Source: Escherichia phage ManiMatter_Bas94. Taken from it: a stretch of 64,000 nucleotides of DNA. The notes beneath the pieces were generated by a model that worked only from the letters and a program-made list of their open reading frames with translations, was not told where the DNA came from and did not search any database. Of this stretch, positions 57,122-61,555 are shown one piece after another (within the stretch, counting starts at the first letter, position 1; every line of letters starts with the position of its first letter). The DNA is taken from the sequence record PQ850617.1, one strand, 5' to 3'. The position numbers and the translations under genes are program-made.

Positions 57122-57149
57122 ATAAAAAAGCCCCAGCCGTAGCCGGGGC
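57122..57149 (-). terminator. Rho-independent terminator (second of a tandem pair)
   Basis: Minus strand reads gccccggc-tacg-gctggggc followed by tttttt. Confidence 0.8.
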
Positions 57150-57201: not shown

Positions 57202-57225
57202 TACAGCAACGCAAAAAGCCGCTCA
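57202..57225 (-). terminator. Rho-independent terminator (first of a tandem pair)
   Basis: Minus strand reads agccgcc-tttga-gcggct followed by ttttt. Confidence 0.75.
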
Positions 57226-57314: not shown

Positions 57315-57758
57315 CTACTTAACCCTTGCTTCTTTGATGGGGTCAATATATTTTTCAACTCCCCACTTATGTTTGCTGTCTGCGTAGAATACATCAGGTG
57401 CGCATTGGCTTGTTTTAGGGAAGGCTTGCGGATCTTTGGTGCTCCCTTTAAACTTCTGTTTACCACGGGTGCGACCATTACAGAAGATTTCTAGTTTCTT
57501 CTCCTCTTCTGTTTTAGCTCCCCCGCTCTTTAATAGTGAACGTTTATGATCAGCTAACAGCAACGCATCAGCACGATGGGTACGATGGCCTACACGCTTG
57601 GGCACACTAGAAGGAATATGAGATTCAGCCTCAGCCCTTGCAGCACGACGCTTTAAACTACGCTTGCTAACATGATTAGTTGCCTTTGGTTTCTCTTTCT
57701 CCAATTCAGAAATAGAAAAACAACGCCCGCCCTTCATGCTGATTTTAGATTTAGCCAC
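57315..57758 (-). CDS. Basic early protein (147 aa) with an Arg-rich segment and an HNH-like signature
   Basis: The Arg-rich segment is KRSLKRRAARAEAE. ADHKRSLLKSGGAKTEEEKKLEIFCNGRTRGK parallels the motif in 31538..31855. Confidence 0.45.
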   Translation of the reverse strand: MAKSKISMKGGRCFSISELEKEKPKATNHVSKRSLKRRAARAEAESHIPSSVPKRVGHRTHRADALLLADHKRSLLKSGGAKTEEEKKLEIFCNGRTRGKQKFKGSTKDPQAFPKTSQCAPDVFYADSKHKWGVEKYIDPIKEARVK

Positions 57759-58530: not shown

Positions 58531-58562
58531 AAAGGCGCTACCCGTTAAAGATAGCGCCTCAT
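58531..58562 (-). terminator. Rho-independent terminator after the first early gene
   Basis: Minus strand reads aggcgcta-tctttaacgg-tagcgcct followed by tttcttttatc. Confidence 0.7.
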
Positions 58563-58582: not shown

Positions 58583-59482
58583 TTATGCCGCCTGACGTGC
58601 CGCCATAATTTCAGCCGCTTTGCGCAATACTTCTTCCTCTTCTGCTTTCGCCGCTTGTTCGGTACGGGTAGCAACCGTTGAAGAGATACGACCGCGCAGA
58701 CTTTCTAACTTCTCTTGCATAGCTGCGATGGTCTTTTCCATTTCATCAGCGTATGAGTCCAGTGATTCTAGTTCCTTGCTCGATGCGTTCATCAGATAAT
58801 CATCAGAGATCGCTACCGTTGAGGCCGTCACTTTCTTGATGAGTGAGTCGAATGACTTCTTAACCTTGCCGACTTCTTCACTTAAGGCAATAGTGTTATC
58901 ACTGGTAGCGCCGTTGCGCTCATCGGCCAACAATTTTGCTTCAATACGGATTGCATTCAAGCGTTCAACTAAAGCGTAAATATCCTGATTAAAATCTTCC
59001 TTGTTTTTCGCCGGTATTTGAAGGTGTGCCGCCACGTTGTCATTGCAACCTTTGTAGAAGTTAGGATTATCCACTTCAATTGCACGACCTAAAGCAAAAT
59101 TCTCGAAAGCATTCGACCAGCGAGCGCGGTTTTGTTCCATTTTGGCCTTAATTTGCGCTTCTTTCGCATCTTCTTTCGCTTTCGCTTCACCTTCCAGATT
59201 AATCCATTTTTTACGACCGTTCGCCGCCTCGGTATTAAACTTGATTGGAGTAAGGAAAGTAATTGCAGTGGCAATAACATCCATATCGCGGAAACGTTCA
59301 GTTAACAGAAAATCGACCGCCGACTGCAATACATCTAATTTCTTGCCGTTGCTGCGGAAGTGCTGCAAATGACCTAACAGAAAGTTAGAAACATCTTGCT
59401 TAATCGCCGCGTTATTGCTACGGATGTTGTTTGCCAGTGCATTGAAACCGGATTCTTTTACCAGATTAAAAACTTTAGCCAT
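58583..59482 (-). CDS. First early protein (299 aa), helical, unknown function
   Basis: ATG 59482 is preferred (aaggtg, 7 nt). It is the first ORF downstream of the promoter array. GC- and CpG-richer than the rest of the window, judged by eye. Confidence 0.5.
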   Translation of the reverse strand: MAKVFNLVKESGFNALANNIRSNNAAIKQDVSNFLLGHLQHFRSNGKKLDVLQSAVDFLLTERFRDMDVIATAITFLTPIKFNTEAANGRKKWINLEGEAKAKEDAKEAQIKAKMEQNRARWSNAFENFALGRAIEVDNPNFYKGCNDNVAAHLQIPAKNKEDFNQDIYALVERLNAIRIEAKLLADERNGATSDNTIALSEEVGKVKKSFDSLIKKVTASTVAISDDYLMNASSKELESLDSYADEMEKTIAAMQEKLESLRGRISSTVATRTEQAAKAEEEEVLRKAAEIMAARQAA

Positions 59483-60301
59483 GATATTCACCTTTCAATT
59501 ATAAGGGCACTATTGCCCCGCTCGCTATGAGCTTTCAAGCCATTATTGACTTAACTATAAACGCTCACTATAAACGCTTATAGGTAAGCGGAGCGGTCTT
59601 ATCAGGAGTTAACCTTGCCGCTCCCTTATCCGTGATGTTTCATCTGGTATCTTTAATTAGTCGCTATAAATAAAGCCGACTTGATAGCGATGATCAATCA
59701 TCACAATAAGGCCAGTGTGTCCGACTCAATTTAATTACATTACTGTAACCGTCGGCAATATCGTTTACTCTGCTTTCGCTCCCGCCTATCCTTTTGTATC
59801 AGCTCTTTATCGCTAGTCATCGCCCACTACGGGATACTATTGCGAAAAAGTCACTAACCGCCTAATATTCCGGCGTTTTATATCTTTCGGCAAGTTTACT
59901 ACACAACACGACTATGTACTTTCATCCTAAGACGAATATCAAGCCGCTCACGTCGTAAACGTTCACACTAAAACCTTATTGTTAAATAGCAATTTGCCAC
60001 TTTTTAACCGTTCGCCGCCGCCCTCAATTGGGCGTTAATTCGTCGGGATTGTCTACCCTGATCAGTTTCTTTCATTGTAGCGCCTTTTTAGCTAGGCCGC
60101 CGCTACCCATTAACCGTGGGCGATTAGTTTTAGCCTTGCGTGCACTCAATGATTCCGCTTACCAGTGGTGACGTTTCCAGTTAAGGGATTGTAAAGCTGT
60201 TTACCCTGATAATTTAGGGAGCTTTACGCCGTTTTATCTGGTATGTTTTCCGATGGTCATTATCATCCAACATATGCAACCGATATAGGGGAACGTTTAA
60301 A

Positions 60302-60314
60302 TTATTAAAGAGCG
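60302..60314 (-). promoter_or_regulatory. boxA-like element 1 (CGCTCTTTAATAA)
   Basis: Minus-strand sequence about 90 nt downstream of the predicted P1 start. Compare rrn boxA TGCTCTTTAACAA. Confidence 0.55.
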
Positions 60315-60408
60315 GTAAATCTGTCAGTGTGCTTTCTCACACTACGCAACTGTTAGCCGTTGTGTCGCTTTTTCACTGAAGCGGTGATTTGCTTAGTGAC
60401 TTGTGCTT

Positions 60409-60437
60409 ATTATGAATCATTTTGCTTCCGCCGTCAA
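60409..60437 (-). promoter_or_regulatory. Sigma70 promoter P1 (TTGACG-17-CATAAT)
   Basis: Read on the minus strand, with A-tracts upstream (gatgaaaaaagattaaaaaagtga). Confidence 0.7.
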
Positions 60438-60541
60438 TCACTTTTTTAATCTTTTTTCATCGTTCCCGCTGTTGGGAAGATATATCAATCAGCTATATTT
60501 GATTGAAGATTAAGCGATCAGGCTTGAACTTATGATTCATA

Positions 60542-60554
60542 TTTTTAAAGAGCG
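60542..60554 (-). promoter_or_regulatory. boxA-like element 2 (CGCTCTTTAAAAA)
   Basis: Lies 13-25 nt downstream of the predicted P2 start. Confidence 0.55.
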
Positions 60555-60573
60555 GTTTTTCTGACTTGTGATC

Positions 60574-60602
60574 AGTATAAACTTACTTTCTCACGTTGTC
60601 AA
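60574..60602 (-). promoter_or_regulatory. Sigma70 promoter P2 (TTGACA-17-TATACT)
   Basis: Read on the minus strand, with an A-tract upstream (gataaaaaagagat). Confidence 0.75.
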
Positions 60603-60676
60603 TCTCTTTTTTATCGTCTTCTTTGATTCTCTTCCCTTATCTCGCGTGAATCTATGCGAAAGGGCAAGACGATAAA

Positions 60677-60689
60677 TTTTTAAAGAGCG
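60677..60689 (-). promoter_or_regulatory. boxA-like element 3 (CGCTCTTTAAAAATTTATCG)
   Basis: Lies 28-40 nt downstream of P3. The similarity extends to the rrn leader TGCTCTTTAACAATTTATCA (from memory). Confidence 0.6.
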
Positions 60690-60723
60690 GGATTTTTTAA
60701 GTCATCGCTGACCTTGTACACTC

Positions 60724-60752
60724 ATTATAGGTTAGGCTTTTTCCGGTGTCAA
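60724..60752 (-). promoter_or_regulatory. Sigma70 promoter P3 (TTGACA-17-TATAAT, full consensus)
   Basis: Minus strand reads ttgaca ccggaaaaagcctaacc tataat. Confidence 0.85.
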
Positions 60753-60771
60753 TATTCTTTTTCAGAATATT
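60751..60771 (-). promoter_or_regulatory. boxB-like hairpin A (AAUAUUCU-GAAAA-AGAAUAUU)
   Basis: 8-bp stem with a GAAAA pentaloop closed by U-A, 17 nt downstream of boxA 4. It overlaps the UP/-35 edge of P3. Confidence 0.45.
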
Positions 60772-60788
60772 TTCACTTTCTAGCCTGA

Positions 60789-60801
60789 TTTTTAAAGAGC
60801 G
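60789..60801 (-). promoter_or_regulatory. boxA-like element 4 (CGCTCTTTAAAAA)
   Basis: Downstream of P4 and followed by hairpin A. Confidence 0.55.
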
Positions 60802-60944
60802 TTTAAAGCTGTATGGCTCCCATAACACCACTTGATGATCAGTTAACCTACGATCATTCAGGACTATAGTACCCGCTTAGTTGCGTCTGACTTGCTTCAC
60901 TCACTAGGGAGTTACTTGAGCGGTCATCTTGTCTTTCTAAGCTC

Positions 60945-60972
60945 ATTATAGGTTAGGCTTTTCAGTTGTCAA
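60945..60972 (-). promoter_or_regulatory. Sigma70 promoter P4 (TTGACA-16-TATAAT)
   Basis: Part of a roughly 80-bp direct repeat with the P3 unit (60721-60802 versus 60942-61022). Confidence 0.8.
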
Positions 60973-60990
60973 ATACTTTTTCAAGTATTT
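60971..60990 (-). promoter_or_regulatory. boxB-like hairpin B (AAAUACUU-GAAA-AAGUAUUU)
   Basis: 8-bp stem with a GNRA loop, 18 nt downstream of boxA 5. The stem differs from hairpin A at several positions but stays complementary. Confidence 0.45.
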
Positions 60991-61008
60991 TTTCACTTTC
61001 TAGCCTAC

Positions 61009-61021
61009 TTTTTAAAGAGCG
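61009..61021 (-). promoter_or_regulatory. boxA-like element 5 (CGCTCTTTAAAAA)
   Basis: Lies 41-53 nt downstream of the predicted P5 start. Confidence 0.55.
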
Positions 61022-61068
61022 GGGCAATTTCTTGCCTTGTATGTTTTACATCGTACCCGATGGAAATG

Positions 61069-61096
61069 AGTATACGCGAGCCTTTAGAAAGTGCAA
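61069..61096 (-). promoter_or_regulatory. Sigma70 promoter P5 (TTGCAC-16-TATACT)
   Basis: Read on the minus strand, with AT-rich sequence upstream. Confidence 0.55.
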
Positions 61097-61254
61097 TAGG
61101 GGAAAGCAAATTATTTTAAACTTTTTCACTGTAGGGAAGATAGAAGAGCGGGCTGACGTGGTACACCATAGGAAACGGCTTGTAAAGCGATAATAGGCGG
61201 CCTAAAACGCACCACAATGAGCTAAAAGGGGATAAGGTATATAATCACCTTAGA

Positions 61255-61286
61255 AAAGAAAAAAGCGCCTTTATTGGCGCTTATAG
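61255..61286 (-). terminator. Rho-independent terminator
   Basis: Minus strand reads agcgcc-aataaa-ggcgct followed by tttttctttt. Confidence 0.75.
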
Positions 61287-61303
61287 GGATGATTTAAAGT
61301 TTT

Positions 61304-61555
61304 TCACCATTTAGGCAAATCTGCATCAAGTAGGCCAGCAAGTGACAATTCACCGTCAACATATATCGATCTGAAATCGTCCCGATTGATATCAATGCGT
61401 ACCATTTGCAGCCATTTTTTGGCCTCGTTAAAGCTCATTGAGCAAAAAGAAACCGTGGGCAATATTACGTCACCATTTTGCAAGCCGAACGCGATAAAAG
61501 TATCGCACACGCAGCAAGAAAGACCGTTCGACAATTTAATCTCTTTGATACTCAT
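61304..61555 (-). CDS. Hypothetical protein (83 aa), paralog of 56270..56515
   Basis: Full-length similarity to 56270..56515, roughly 60 percent aa identity by eye. Confidence 0.5.
   Translation of the reverse strand: MSIKEIKLSNGLSCCVCDTFIAFGLQNGDVILPTVSFCSMSFNEAKKWLQMVRIDINRDDFRSIYVDGELSLAGLLDADLPKW

What the first reader, a model, noticed from the sequence alone, without database searches (positions are those of the whole stretch)
60302..61096. Five stacked sigma70 promoters, each followed by an rrn/lambda-type boxA; two also carry covarying GNRA-loop (boxB-like) hairpins
On the minus strand, which is the direction of the early genes, five promoters are stacked within 700 bp:
- P5 TTGCAC-16-TATACT
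- P4 TTGACA-16-TATAAT
- P3 TTGACA-17-TATAAT
- P2 TTGACA-17-TATACT
- P1 TTGACG-17-CATAAT

All five have A-tracts upstream. Downstream of every one lies CGCTCTTTAA(A/T)AA, at 61021-61009, 60801-60789, 60689-60677, 60554-60542 and 60314-60302.

For comparison, E. coli rrn boxA is TGCTCTTTAACAA and lambda nut boxA is CGCTCTTA. Copy 3 reads CGCTCTTTAAAAATTTATCG, against rrn TGCTCTTTAACAATTTATCA as I remember that leader.

Copies 4 and 5 are followed 17-18 nt later by hairpins AAUAUUCU-GAAAA-AGAAUAUU and AAAUACUU-GAAA-AAGUAUUU. The stems differ at several positions but stay complementary, and the purine loop is closed by U-A. Lambda nutR boxB is GCCCU-GAAAA-AGGGC.

This looks like a Nus-factor-dependent processive antitermination device on the early transcripts of a lytic podophage. 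It sits in front of a long untranslated leader and several intrinsic terminators (58531-58562, 57202-57225, 57122-57149). I am not aware of such an element being described for this phage group.

No clear N homolog is visible. The only Arg-rich candidate in the early operon is 57315..57758 (KRSLKRRAARAEAE), and that link is weak.
Basis: partly seen in the sequence, partly recalled or inferred. Interest (0 to 1): 0.85.

Follow-up and report, generated by a model that had tools for sequence, protein, structure and literature searches.

The report
Phage early promoters with rrn-type boxA
A phiEco32-like coliphage starts its early transcription from five stacked host-type promoters, each followed by a copy of the host's ribosomal-RNA anti-termination signal (boxA), and these feed into a previously unannotated ~830-base highly structured untranslated RNA; the boxA device itself is already known from phage T7.

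Summary
Five exact CGCTCTTTAAWAA motifs lie on the minus strand, at the stated coordinates, each downstream of a sigma70-type promoter.

All five fit the published E. coli boxA consensus GYTCTTTAANA. About 0.003 matches are expected in such a stretch. All 20 related phages examined carry 3-5 sense-strand copies. The only variable core position is the consensus "N". Many relatives carry the exact rrn sequence GCTCTTTAACAATTTA.

The interpretation needs correcting:
- This is an rrn/T7-type, N-independent boxA, not a lambda-type nut site.
- The two "boxB-like" hairpins are real stems, but their loops are not conserved. They overlap the -35/UP region, occur only in one duplicated promoter module, and no N-like protein was found.
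- The kind is already known. T7 has the same boxA after its stacked A1-A3 promoters, and it is genetically functional. K1E and MR4 have it too.

What appears new:
- One boxA per promoter.
- A ~830-nt untranslated leader with very strong covariation (65-68 compensatory pairs against 4-9 in controls). It is present and almost always unannotated in 97 Gordonclarkvirinae genomes.
- A ~120-nt structured RNA shared with two unrelated phage families.

NusB/E binding and antitermination remain untested.

The parts
61069..61096 (-). P5: TTGCAC-16-TATACT with upstream A/T tracts. It is the weakest of the five promoters.
   Evidence: Read. The hexamers are conserved and the spacer varies in Bas93, NJ01, ECBP2, KBNP1711, 172-1, MN05 and IME267.
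61023..61036 (-). Hairpin GGCAA-GAAA-TTGCC, ending one base before boxA copy 5. This is the rrn order: hairpin first, then boxA.
   Evidence: Other lineages have different hairpins (GGCAC-TTA-GTGCC, AGGCTA-N6-TAGCCT) directly abutting a boxA.
61009..61021 (-). boxA copy 5: CGCTCTTTAAAAA
60971..60990 (-). Hairpin AAATACTT-GAAA-AAGTATTT. Its 3' arm overlaps the -35 of P4, and its loop and 3' arm coincide with the UP-type A-tract.
60945..60972 (-). P4: TTGACA-16-TATAAT (12 of 12 matches)
60812..60930 (-). Structured RNA element of about 120 nt at the 5' end of the P4 transcript. It has several hairpins and the invariant core GAAGCAAGUCAGACG. It is shared with Pseudomonas phage MR4 and Citrobacter phage CVT22.
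   Evidence: In one search, 14 of 30 pairs show compensatory changes, against 0-2 in slid controls.
60789..60801 (-). boxA copy 4: CGCTCTTTAAAAA
60751..60771 (-). Hairpin AATATTCT-GAAAA-AGAATATT. Its 3' arm overlaps the -35 of P3.
60724..60752 (-). P3: TTGACA-17-TATAAT (12 of 12 matches)
60677..60689 (-). boxA copy 3: CGCTCTTTAAAAA, followed by TTTATC as in the rrn leader
60611..60675 (-). Long hairpin TTATCGTCTT...AAGACGATAA directly after boxA copy 3. It covaries with TTATCATCTT...AAGATGATAA in relatives.
60574..60602 (-). P2: TTGACA-17-TATACT
60542..60554 (-). boxA copy 2: CGCTCTTTAAAAA
60409..60437 (-). P1: TTGACG-17-CATAAT. Its upstream AAAAAAGATTAAAAAAGT resembles AAAAAAGATCAAAAAAGT upstream of an E. 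coli rrn P1.
60302..60314 (-). boxA copy 1: CGCTCTTTAATAA. In many relatives it reads GCTCTTTAACAATTTA, the exact rrn sequence. The block AGATTTACCGCTCTTTAA is invariant in the 17-phage alignment.
59492..60301 (-). Large conserved structured untranslated RNA of about 0.8 kb, lying between the last boxA and the first long early ORF.
   Evidence: No sense ORF of 30 aa or more. 222 consensus pairs, 99.2% canonical, 65 compensatory against 4-8 in slid controls, 0 of 500 shuffles. With 20 sequences: 68 against 5-9. Folding z-score -3.66. Full-length in 97 records and almost always unannotated.
58583..59491 (-). First long early ORF (302 aa, PHROG 13018, function unknown)
61263..61282 (-). Intrinsic terminator that closes the upstream small operon, just before the promoter cluster
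   Evidence: The SU10 paper PMC4281155 describes the same layout.
58532..58560 (-). Intrinsic terminator after the 302-aa ORF. Further terminators lie at 57234-57217 and 57149-57130.

Best explanation
This is the early-promoter cluster of a phiEco32-like (Gordonclarkvirinae, Kuravirus) coliphage.

Proposed mechanism:
1. Host sigma70 RNA polymerase starts at five tandem promoters that carry UP-type A-tracts.
2. Within roughly 14-140 nt of each predicted start it transcribes an rrn-type boxA (GCUCUUUAANAA).
3. The nascent boxA RNA is proposed to bind host NusB-NusE(S10). Together with NusA, NusG and SuhB (and S4), this would convert the polymerase into an rrn-type antitermination complex without any phage N protein.
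4. That complex resists Rho, and partly resists pauses and intrinsic terminators. It may also assist RNA folding.
5. The polymerase can then cross 0.8-1.6 kb of untranslated, highly structured leader RNA and continue into the early operon of small ORFs and terminators.

This is the same logic as boxA in E. coli rrn operons and CRISPR-array leaders, and as the boxA behind T7's A1-A3 promoters.

Shown here:
- the motifs, their significance, strand, conservation and fit to the consensus
- the promoters
- the absence of ORFs in the leader and its RNA structure
- the T7, K1E and MR4 precedents

Inferred, not shown:
- NusB/E binding
- Rho resistance
- any effect on the downstream terminators
For: 1. 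All five copies match the experimentally derived consensus GYTCTTTAANA of PMC5725501. About 0.003 are expected in the stretch.
2. All are on the transcribed strand, each between a promoter and the next.
3. In the 17 relatives sense matches to the full consensus lie in the cluster, against one antisense match, which is in coding DNA. The three most divergent phages have 4-5 sense copies of the 8-nt core each.
4. Over the 86 copies seeded on GCTCTTTA (58 unique), the logo is C-GCTCTTTAA-N-AA-T. Positions 9 and 11 are invariant, 12 nearly so and 13 mostly T; none of these were part of the search seed. Position 10 takes all four bases, exactly where the consensus has N.
5. Flanks differ between paralogous copies while the core does not.
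6. Many copies equal the host's own rrn leader over 16 nt.
7. The downstream RNA is untranslated and structured. This is the type of transcript for which boxA-mediated protection from Rho is documented: rRNA, and CRISPR arrays in PMC7665894.
8. No other match to the consensus lies on either strand in the window, apart from 57525 on the + strand. The small upstream operon that ends at its own terminator therefore has none.
9. T7 has the identical motif behind its stacked early promoters, and mutations in it have a genetic phenotype.
10. K1E has 3 sense copies and MR4 has 2 in host-RNAP-transcribed early regions.
Against: - There is no direct evidence of NusB/E binding, Rho sensitivity or antitermination in this phage group.
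- The leader is A-rich with G>C, so it is not an obvious rut substrate.
- Predicted single-strandedness of the boxAs is not exceptional: 0.42-0.73 against a mean of 0.42.
- One boxA downstream of all promoters would suffice, as in T7. The extra copies may partly reflect duplication of promoter modules; copies 4 and 5 are clear paralogs.
- The related Salmonella phage 7-11 has no boxA in the region inspected.
- From general knowledge, rrn-type complexes are weak against strong intrinsic terminators such as 58560-58532.
Confidence: 0.7

Rival explanations
1. RNA-folding chaperone role. The boxA-nucleated Nus complex is recruited mainly to guide co-transcriptional folding or processing of the ~830-nt structured RNA and the 120-nt element, as proposed for rRNA. 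Blocking termination would be secondary. This is compatible with the best explanation and may operate together with it.
For: The leader is a large, strongly covarying structure. The promoter UP element and boxA copy the rrn operon design. The literature treats rrnTAC as an RNA chaperone (titles and abstracts, e.g. PMC8632103, PMC10250234).
Against: T7, K1E and MR4 use boxA in front of ordinary short leaders and small ORFs, with no large RNA. There is no evidence that the phage RNA needs assisted folding.
Confidence: 0.1
2. Nus-factor decoy. Five strong promoters flood the cell with boxA RNA that titrates NusB/NusE/SuhB away from host rrn operons, contributing to host shut-off.
For: There are multiple boxA copies per genome, exact mimicry of the host rrn boxA, and near-consensus promoters.
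Against: Every copy sits in cis, in sense orientation, between a promoter and the downstream leader. A pure decoy would not need this, and would not need the last copy to be invariantly placed after P1. T7 genetics point to a cis antitermination role. No terminators separate the copies to release short decoy RNAs.
Confidence: 0.07
3. Lambda-type nut sites. boxA plus the downstream GNRA-like hairpin (boxB) recruit a phage N-like arginine-rich protein.
For: In this window, two copies are followed 17-18 nt later by 8-bp hairpins with GAAA or GAAAA loops. The stems stay complementary in relatives, including U.G pairs.
Against: Loops are not conserved in relatives, and the spacing between half-sites varies. 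Only the duplicated P3/P4-type module has the hairpin. Its loop and 3' arm coincide with the -35/UP region of the next promoter. No N-like family was hit for seven early ORFs, including the Arg-rich one. The boxA is the full rrn type, which works without N in rrn and T7.
Confidence: 0.03
4. DNA-level element. The 13-mers are binding sites for a DNA-binding protein (iterons of an origin, or operators for an early-to-middle switch), or they simply hitch-hike in duplicated promoter cassettes.
For: They lie in the main non-coding region, next to the divergence point of transcription where cumulative GC skew reaches its minimum. Copies 4 and 5 belong to a duplicated cassette.
Against: Strict strand bias: 73 sense against 1 antisense. 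Spacing is irregular, at 112-240 nt. The motif is identical to an RNA signal of the host. The core is conserved while the flanks differ in non-paralogous contexts and in unrelated phages (T7, K1E, MR4).
Confidence: 0.04

Closest known systems
T7 early-region boxA (downstream of host promoters A1, A2, A3)
   Same: - Both are lytic coliphage podoviruses.
- Both have stacked strong sigma70 early promoters followed by an rrn-type boxA on the early transcript, with no N protein.
- T7 has GCTCTTTAACAA at 813-824, after the A3 start at 750.
- In T7 the element is described as an anti-termination element with a genetic phenotype.
- T7, K1E and MR4 read GCTCTTTAACAATCTGG. Window copies 4 and 5 read GCTCTTTAAAAATCAGG and GCTCTTTAAAAAGTAGG, so the similarity extends past boxA.
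   Different: - T7 has one boxA serving three promoters and a short leader before gene 0.3.
- Here there is one boxA per promoter (five), position 10 is A or T rather than C, and a 0.8-kb structured untranslated RNA follows.
- The phage families are unrelated (Gordonclarkvirinae against Autographiviridae).
- The later switch uses a phage sigma factor in the phiEco32 relatives, not a phage RNA polymerase.
E. coli rrn operon leader (tandem P1/P2 with UP element, boxB-boxA-boxC, rrnTAC with NusA/B/E/G, SuhB, S4)
   Same: - Tandem strong promoters with A-tract UP elements.
- The same boxA sequence, up to 16 of 16 nt in relatives.
- A hairpin just upstream of some boxA copies.
- A long, structured, untranslated product.
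   Different: - No boxC (UGUGUGGG) follows the phage copies.
- There are five copies instead of one leader copy.
- The discriminators are not GC-rich.
- The product is not rRNA, and Rfam finds nothing.
boxA-mediated protection of CRISPR-array leaders and suhB regulation (PMC7665894, PMC5725501)
   Same: A boxA matching GYTCTTTAANA is used outside rrn to keep Rho off a long non-coding transcript.
   Different: Those are chromosomal single copies. Here the motif is in a virulent phage, repeated, and behind very strong promoters.
Lambda nutL/nutR (boxA + boxB + N)
   Same: A boxA-like core (CGCTCTT) on early transcripts of a phage. Two copies have a downstream purine-loop hairpin.
   Different: - There is no conserved boxB loop and no N homolog.
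- The boxA is the full rrn type.
- The spacing is 17-18 nt rather than about 8 (the lambda figure is from general knowledge).
HK022 put RNA (considered for the 120-nt element at the 5' end of the P4 transcript)
   Same: A structured RNA that begins close to the start site of a strong early promoter of a phage.
   Different: There is no sequence similarity to putL. The element has more hairpins and is about 120 nt, against 73 nt in two stems for put. Its function is untested.

Membership tests
rrn-type boxA (NusB-NusE binding RNA element) | Sequence matches the gamma-proteobacterial consensus GYTCTTTAANA | tested here: met
   All five copies match exactly. Only one other match exists in the 64 kb. 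The consensus is from PMC5725501.
rrn-type boxA (NusB-NusE binding RNA element) | Lies on the transcribed strand, downstream of a promoter | tested here: met
   All copies are on the minus strand, 20-144 nt after a -10 hexamer. In 17 relatives there are 73 sense matches against 1 antisense. The transcription starts themselves are predicted, not mapped.
rrn-type boxA (NusB-NusE binding RNA element) | Resembles the host's own rrn boxA | tested here: met
   The rrn leader was verified in 5426 of 5426 E. coli genomes. The window copies differ from it only at position 10 and in the base preceding G1. Relatives carry GCTCTTTAACAATTTA exactly.
rrn-type boxA (NusB-NusE binding RNA element) | Core conserved under selection while surrounding sequence drifts | tested here: met
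   Logo over 58 unique copies. Aligned orthologous copies 1 and 2 are invariant in 17 phages. One degenerate copy was seen in L009 (GCTCCTTAAAAA).
rrn-type boxA (NusB-NusE binding RNA element) | Single-stranded and accessible in the nascent RNA | tested here: inconclusive
   Mean unpaired probability is 0.42-0.73, against 0.42 for the whole leader. Copy 1 is unpaired in the consensus structure.
rrn-type boxA (NusB-NusE binding RNA element) | Binds NusB-NusE and recruits NusA/NusG/SuhB, making RNA polymerase Rho-resistant | not testable with these tools
   Needs EMSA or ITC, ChIP, in vitro transcription and host nus mutants.
T7-type early boxA arrangement | Stacked host-RNAP early promoters followed by an rrn-type boxA before the first early gene, with no N protein | tested here: met
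   Window. T7. Literature statement.
Lambda-type nut site | Conserved boxB hairpin with a GNRA-like pentaloop a few nt downstream of boxA | tested here: not met
   A hairpin is present at only 2 of 5 copies. Loops vary among relatives (GAAA, GAAAA, AAA, AAAAAA, GAAAAA, UUAAAAAU) and stem length varies.
Lambda-type nut site | Cognate N-family arginine-rich antiterminator encoded in the early operon | tested here: not met
   Seven early ORFs, including 57315-57758, have no Pfam hit to N or to any RNA-binding family. PHROGs assign unknown function to six of them, and label the seventh (61304-61555) 'polymerase'. Only sequence-profile searches were done.
HK022 put RNA (for the 120-nt element) | Sequence or architecture similarity to putL/putR (two stems, about 73 nt) | tested here: not met
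Any Rfam family (for the 830-nt RNA and the 120-nt element) | Covariance-model match | tested here: not met
   cmscan of 59400-61500 at E up to 5 returned only four sub-threshold chance hits. No tRNA or tmRNA was found.

The most novel reading that the evidence does not exclude
The ~830-nt leader (59492-60301) may not be just a 5' UTR. It could be a new class of large structured non-coding RNA specific to Gordonclarkvirinae. It would be made in large amounts in the first minutes of infection from an rrn-operon-like cassette: tandem UP-element promoters plus boxA. It would then have a function of its own in host take-over or defence evasion. The separate ~120-nt RNA shared with MR4 and CVT22 would be a second, mobile early-leader RNA module. 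The boxAs would then be the expression machinery of a phage 'pseudo-rRNA operon'.
Probability: 0.35. Interest if true: 0.8.

Novelty: new member of a known kind. Interest (0 to 1): 0.55.

Why it matters
If the boxAs work as predicted, hijacking of the host's rRNA antitermination machinery without an N protein would not be a T7 curiosity. It would be a recurrent strategy of virulent coliphages from unrelated families: T7, SP6/K1E-like phages, MR4, and now about 100 Gordonclarkvirinae genomes.

It would also explain how host polymerase crosses a kilobase of untranslated RNA. The authors of the 7-11 study left open an antitermination problem for that more distant relative. No boxA was found in the 7-11 region I inspected, so 7-11 itself needs another answer.

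The five-copy arrangement gives a natural system for asking why boxA must be promoter-proximal.

Independently, the strongly covarying 830-nt RNA is an unannotated feature of a phage group that the BASEL study calls abundant, poorly studied and unusually resistant to defence systems. It is a concrete candidate for a new large phage RNA.

Bas93, the closest relative, plates on an O-antigen-restored E. coli K-12, so host nus, rho and suhB genetics are directly applicable.

Tried and rejected
- **HK022 put-like antiterminator RNA for the 120-nt element.** I fetched HK022 and located putL with the published primer. There is no similarity.
- **Rfam, tRNA and tmRNA.** Nothing was found.
- **CsrA sponge idea for the 830-nt RNA.** GGA is not enriched: 11 observed against 15.6 ± 3.3 expected.
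- **Wider distribution of the 120-nt element.**
  - The IMG/VR scan with a 16-mer returned only NJ01 and CVT22 as true hits, plus chance hits.
  - A 22-base pattern found nothing in metagenome or genome contigs.
  - blastn with the CVT22 copy found only kuraviruses and MR4.
- **boxA in Salmonella phage 7-11.** None was found in the last 8 kb.
- **Accessibility of the boxAs by base-pair probabilities.** Uninformative.
- **Rut-like C>G composition of the leader.** Only one weak window, so composition does not by itself predict strong Rho loading.
- **N homolog.** No Pfam or PHROG function for the early ORFs tested.
- **Literature.**
  - Savalia 2008, Pavlova 2012 and Savalia 2010 are not held. 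I cannot exclude that boxA in phiEco32 was mentioned there.
  - Full-text searches found no paper that links boxA or NusB to phiEco32 or Kuravirus.
- **A sixth 'boxA' (TGCTATTTAACAAT, 59993-59980).** Rejected. It has C4->A against the consensus and is base-paired in the conserved structure.
Full report
**What the window is.** The region is 94% identical to Escherichia phage AidaStucki_Bas93 and 91% identical to phage LAMP. It is 73-90% identical to about 100 phiEco32-like phages (Gordonclarkvirinae: Kuravirus, Suseptimavirus). In these phages the early genes run on the window's minus strand. The finding lies in the main non-coding 'spacer'. The SU10 genome paper says this spacer carries three predicted sigma70 promoters, 'like phage phiEco32' (PMC4281155). 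The promoter cluster as such is therefore already recognised in the group.

**Checking the observation.**
All are on the minus strand with no mismatch.
- The scanner finds P4, P3, P2 and P1 as the four best promoter matches in 8 kb.
- P5 (TTGCAC-16-TATACT, 61096-61069) is weaker. Its hexamers are conserved across relatives while the spacer changes, which is what a real promoter looks like.
- The two hairpins, the A-tracts, the downstream terminators and the long ORF-free stretch are all present.
I verified the rrn leader in all 5426 complete E. coli genomes, at a median of 7 copies. In the copy I inspected it lies about 100 nt upstream of the 16S gene.

**Is the motif a boxA?**
- Baniulyte et al. 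derived the functional consensus GYTCTTTAANA (PMC5725501). All five copies fit it. Only one further match exists in the 64 kb, and about 0.003 are expected in such a stretch.
- I fetched 19 relatives that span the subfamily, down to 74% pairwise identity in the leader.
  - Each of the 17 phages has 3-5 sense matches to the full consensus in the cluster, 73 in all. There is a single antisense match, inside coding DNA.
  - The three most divergent phages have 4-5 sense copies of the 8-nt core each.
- Across the 86 copies seeded on GCTCTTTA (58 unique) the logo is C-GCTCTTTAA-N-AA-T.
  - Positions 9 and 11 are invariant, 12 is nearly so and 13 is mostly T. None of these were part of my search seed.
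  - Position 10 takes A, C, T and G, exactly the 'N' of the published consensus.
- Flanks of paralogous copies are unrelated, yet the core never drifts. One visibly decayed copy was seen, in L009.
- Many copies read GCTCTTTAACAATTTA, identical to the host rrn leader over 16 nt.
- This is strong evidence for selection on an RNA-strand-specific element that mimics the host boxA.

**The 'boxB-like' hairpins.** They belong to one cassette type: boxA - AGGCTAGAAAGTG - hairpin - TTGACA promoter. This cassette is duplicated here as the modules containing copies 5 and 4.
- Among relatives the stem is maintained in six or seven variants. Some include U.G pairs, and the distance between the conserved half-sites changes (6 vs 8 nt). 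This favours a nucleic-acid hairpin over a protein operator.
- The loops, however, are GAAA, GAAAA, AAA, AAAAAA, GAAAAA and UUAAAAAU.
- The 3' arm runs into the -35 hexamer.
- The A-rich loop coincides with the proximal A-tract that P1 and P2 carry without any palindrome.
- No N-like protein was detected among seven early ORFs.
- The lambda-nut analogy therefore fails on its defining features.
- Some boxA copies instead have a hairpin immediately upstream. GGCAA-GAAA-TTGCC ends one base before copy 5, and other lineages have GGCAC-TTA-GTGCC or AGGCTA-N6-TAGCCT in that position. This is the rrn order (hairpin, then boxA). I did not test it further.

**What lies downstream.** This was the main surprise.
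- The ~830 nt between the last boxA and the first long ORF (302 aa, function unknown) contain no sense ORF of 30 aa or more. They are as conserved as the coding regions.
- An RNAalifold consensus on 17 phages gives 222 pairs. Of the cells, 99.2% are canonical. 65 pairs show compensatory double changes, against 4-8 when partners are slid by 1-3 columns. None of 500 shuffles reaches the observed values.
- Adding the three most divergent genomes gives 68 compensatory pairs against 5-9.
- The folding z-score is -3.66.
- blastn finds the RNA full-length in all 97 matching records. It is almost always unannotated, and it was not found outside the group.
- Rfam has nothing for it.
- The five promoters and boxAs therefore drive a long, untranslated, highly structured RNA. 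boxA-dependent protection from Rho is documented for exactly this kind of transcript: rRNA, and CRISPR arrays (PMC7665894).
- The A-tracts upstream of P1 (AAAAAAGATTAAAAAAGT) are also nearly identical to those upstream of an E. coli rrn P1 (AAAAAAGATCAAAAAAGT).
- No boxA lies anywhere else in the window on the early strand, so the small translated operon just upstream has none.

**A second structured RNA.**
- Between P4 and boxA copy 4 lies a ~120-nt element that weak blastn hits connected to two other phages.
  - One is Pseudomonas phage MR4 (Autographiviridae). There it is followed directly by GCTCTTTAACAA.
  - The other is Citrobacter phage CVT22 (Zobellviridae). There it starts right after a TTGCAT-17-TGTAAT promoter-like sequence.
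- Six sequences from the three families support several hairpins, with 14 of 30 pairs compensatory against 0-2 in controls.
- It is not similar to HK022 putL.
- It is rare in the public collections I scanned.

**Comparison with what is known.**
- Following the MR4 hit showed that its boxA module matches 171 phage records, mostly SP6/K1E-like and related podoviruses.
- K1E has three sense GCTCTTTAACAAT copies in its host-transcribed early region.
- T7 itself has GCTCTTTAACAA at 813-824, just after the A1 (498), A2 (626) and A3 (750) starts and before gene 0.3.
- PMC3709561, citing Savalia et al. [quoted passage not shown] It reports that boxA mutations make the host-RNAP inhibitor Gp2 dispensable.
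- An rrn-type boxA behind stacked early promoters of a lytic podophage is therefore an established kind of element.
- For the phiEco32 group I found no mention of it.

**Mechanism and verdict.**
- The best-supported model (confidence about 0.7) is as follows. Each nascent boxA recruits host NusB-NusE and the other rrn antitermination factors to the polymerase that has just left the adjacent promoter. No phage N protein is needed.
- This would make the polymerase Rho-resistant and fast across the untranslated structured leader and into the early operon. It might also aid folding of that RNA.
- Binding and antitermination are inferred, not shown.
- The composition of the leader does not by itself predict strong Rho loading. 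Predicted accessibility of the boxAs is unremarkable.
- Rival readings (Nus-factor decoy, lambda-type nut, DNA-level sites) are each disfavoured by three things: the strict cis, sense-strand, promoter-proximal placement, the T7 genetics, and the lack of a conserved boxB or N.
- I rate the boxA device a new member of a known kind.
- The features that deserve follow-up as possibly new are the one-boxA-per-promoter layout, the 830-nt covarying RNA and the 120-nt mobile RNA module.

Noticed in passing
window 59492-60301 (minus strand): An untranslated RNA of about 830 nt with very strong covariation: 65-68 compensatory pairs against 4-9 in slid controls, and 99% canonical pairing. It is full-length in 97 Gordonclarkvirinae records, almost always unannotated, and has no Rfam match. 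Its function is unknown.
   Followed up: yes
window 60812-60930 (minus); L002 2497-2620 (MR4); L003 248-370 (CVT22): A structured RNA of about 120 nt with the invariant core GAAGCRAGUCAGACG. It is shared by some kuraviruses, a Pseudomonas autographivirus and a Citrobacter zobellvirus. It starts near a strong promoter, and a boxA follows it in two of the three families. It is not put-like, and it was absent from the metagenome and genome pattern scans.
   Followed up: partly
L036 (K1E) 894, 1663, 1975; L002 (MR4) 2623, 2863; L037 (T7) 813: Exact GCTCTTTAACAAT, often extended as ...CAATCTGG(CTAG), recurs in the host-transcribed early regions of T7, K1E and MR4. The MR4 module hits 171 phage records (Escherichia, Pectobacterium, Klebsiella and others). 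Window copy 4 shares the extension ATCAGGCTAG.
   Followed up: partly
window 59980-59993 (minus): TGCTATTTAACAAT is a near-boxA (C4->A). It is invariant in 16 of 17 phages, but it is base-paired in the conserved structure. It is probably not a NusB/E site.
   Followed up: partly
window ~60441-60458 (minus) vs L038 ~255-272: The A-tracts upstream of P1 (AAAAAAGATTAAAAAAGT) match those upstream of an E. coli rrn P1 promoter (AAAAAAGATCAAAAAAGT) at 17 of 18 positions. This suggests mimicry of an rrn UP element.
   Followed up: partly
window 61023-61036 and 60701-60712 (minus): Small GNRA-loop hairpins lie just upstream of two boxA copies: GGCAA-GAAA-TTGCC one base before copy 5, and GTCA-GCGA-TGAC 11 nt before copy 3. 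The second covaries with ATTCA-GCGA-TGAAT in phiEco32. This is the rrn order of boxB then boxA.
   Followed up: no
window 60786-60781 with 60738-60733, and the equivalent in the P4 module: CAGGCT after the boxA is complementary to AGCCT(G/A) between the -35 and -10 of the next promoter. In read-through RNA the small hairpin and the -35 region would therefore sit inside an outer stem.
   Followed up: no
Relatives' annotations over the non-coding cluster (e.g. NJ01 JX867715 3290-4164; 101114UKE3): Deposited records annotate 'cathepsin L-like cysteine proteinase A' or many tiny hypothetical ORFs across what is non-coding promoter and RNA sequence. Nearby small ORFs are labelled 'terminase', 'polymerase' or 'DNA polymerase B region'. 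These labels are likely misannotations.
   Followed up: no
window 57525-57535 (+ strand): This is the only other GYTCTTTAANA match in the window. It lies antisense to the early ORF 57315-57758 and is probably chance.
   Followed up: no
L035 (Salmonella phage 7-11, last 8 kb): No consensus boxA is found near the validated early promoters of the distant relative 7-11. The authors of the 7-11 study explicitly say that an antitermination strategy for it remains to be defined.
   Followed up: partly
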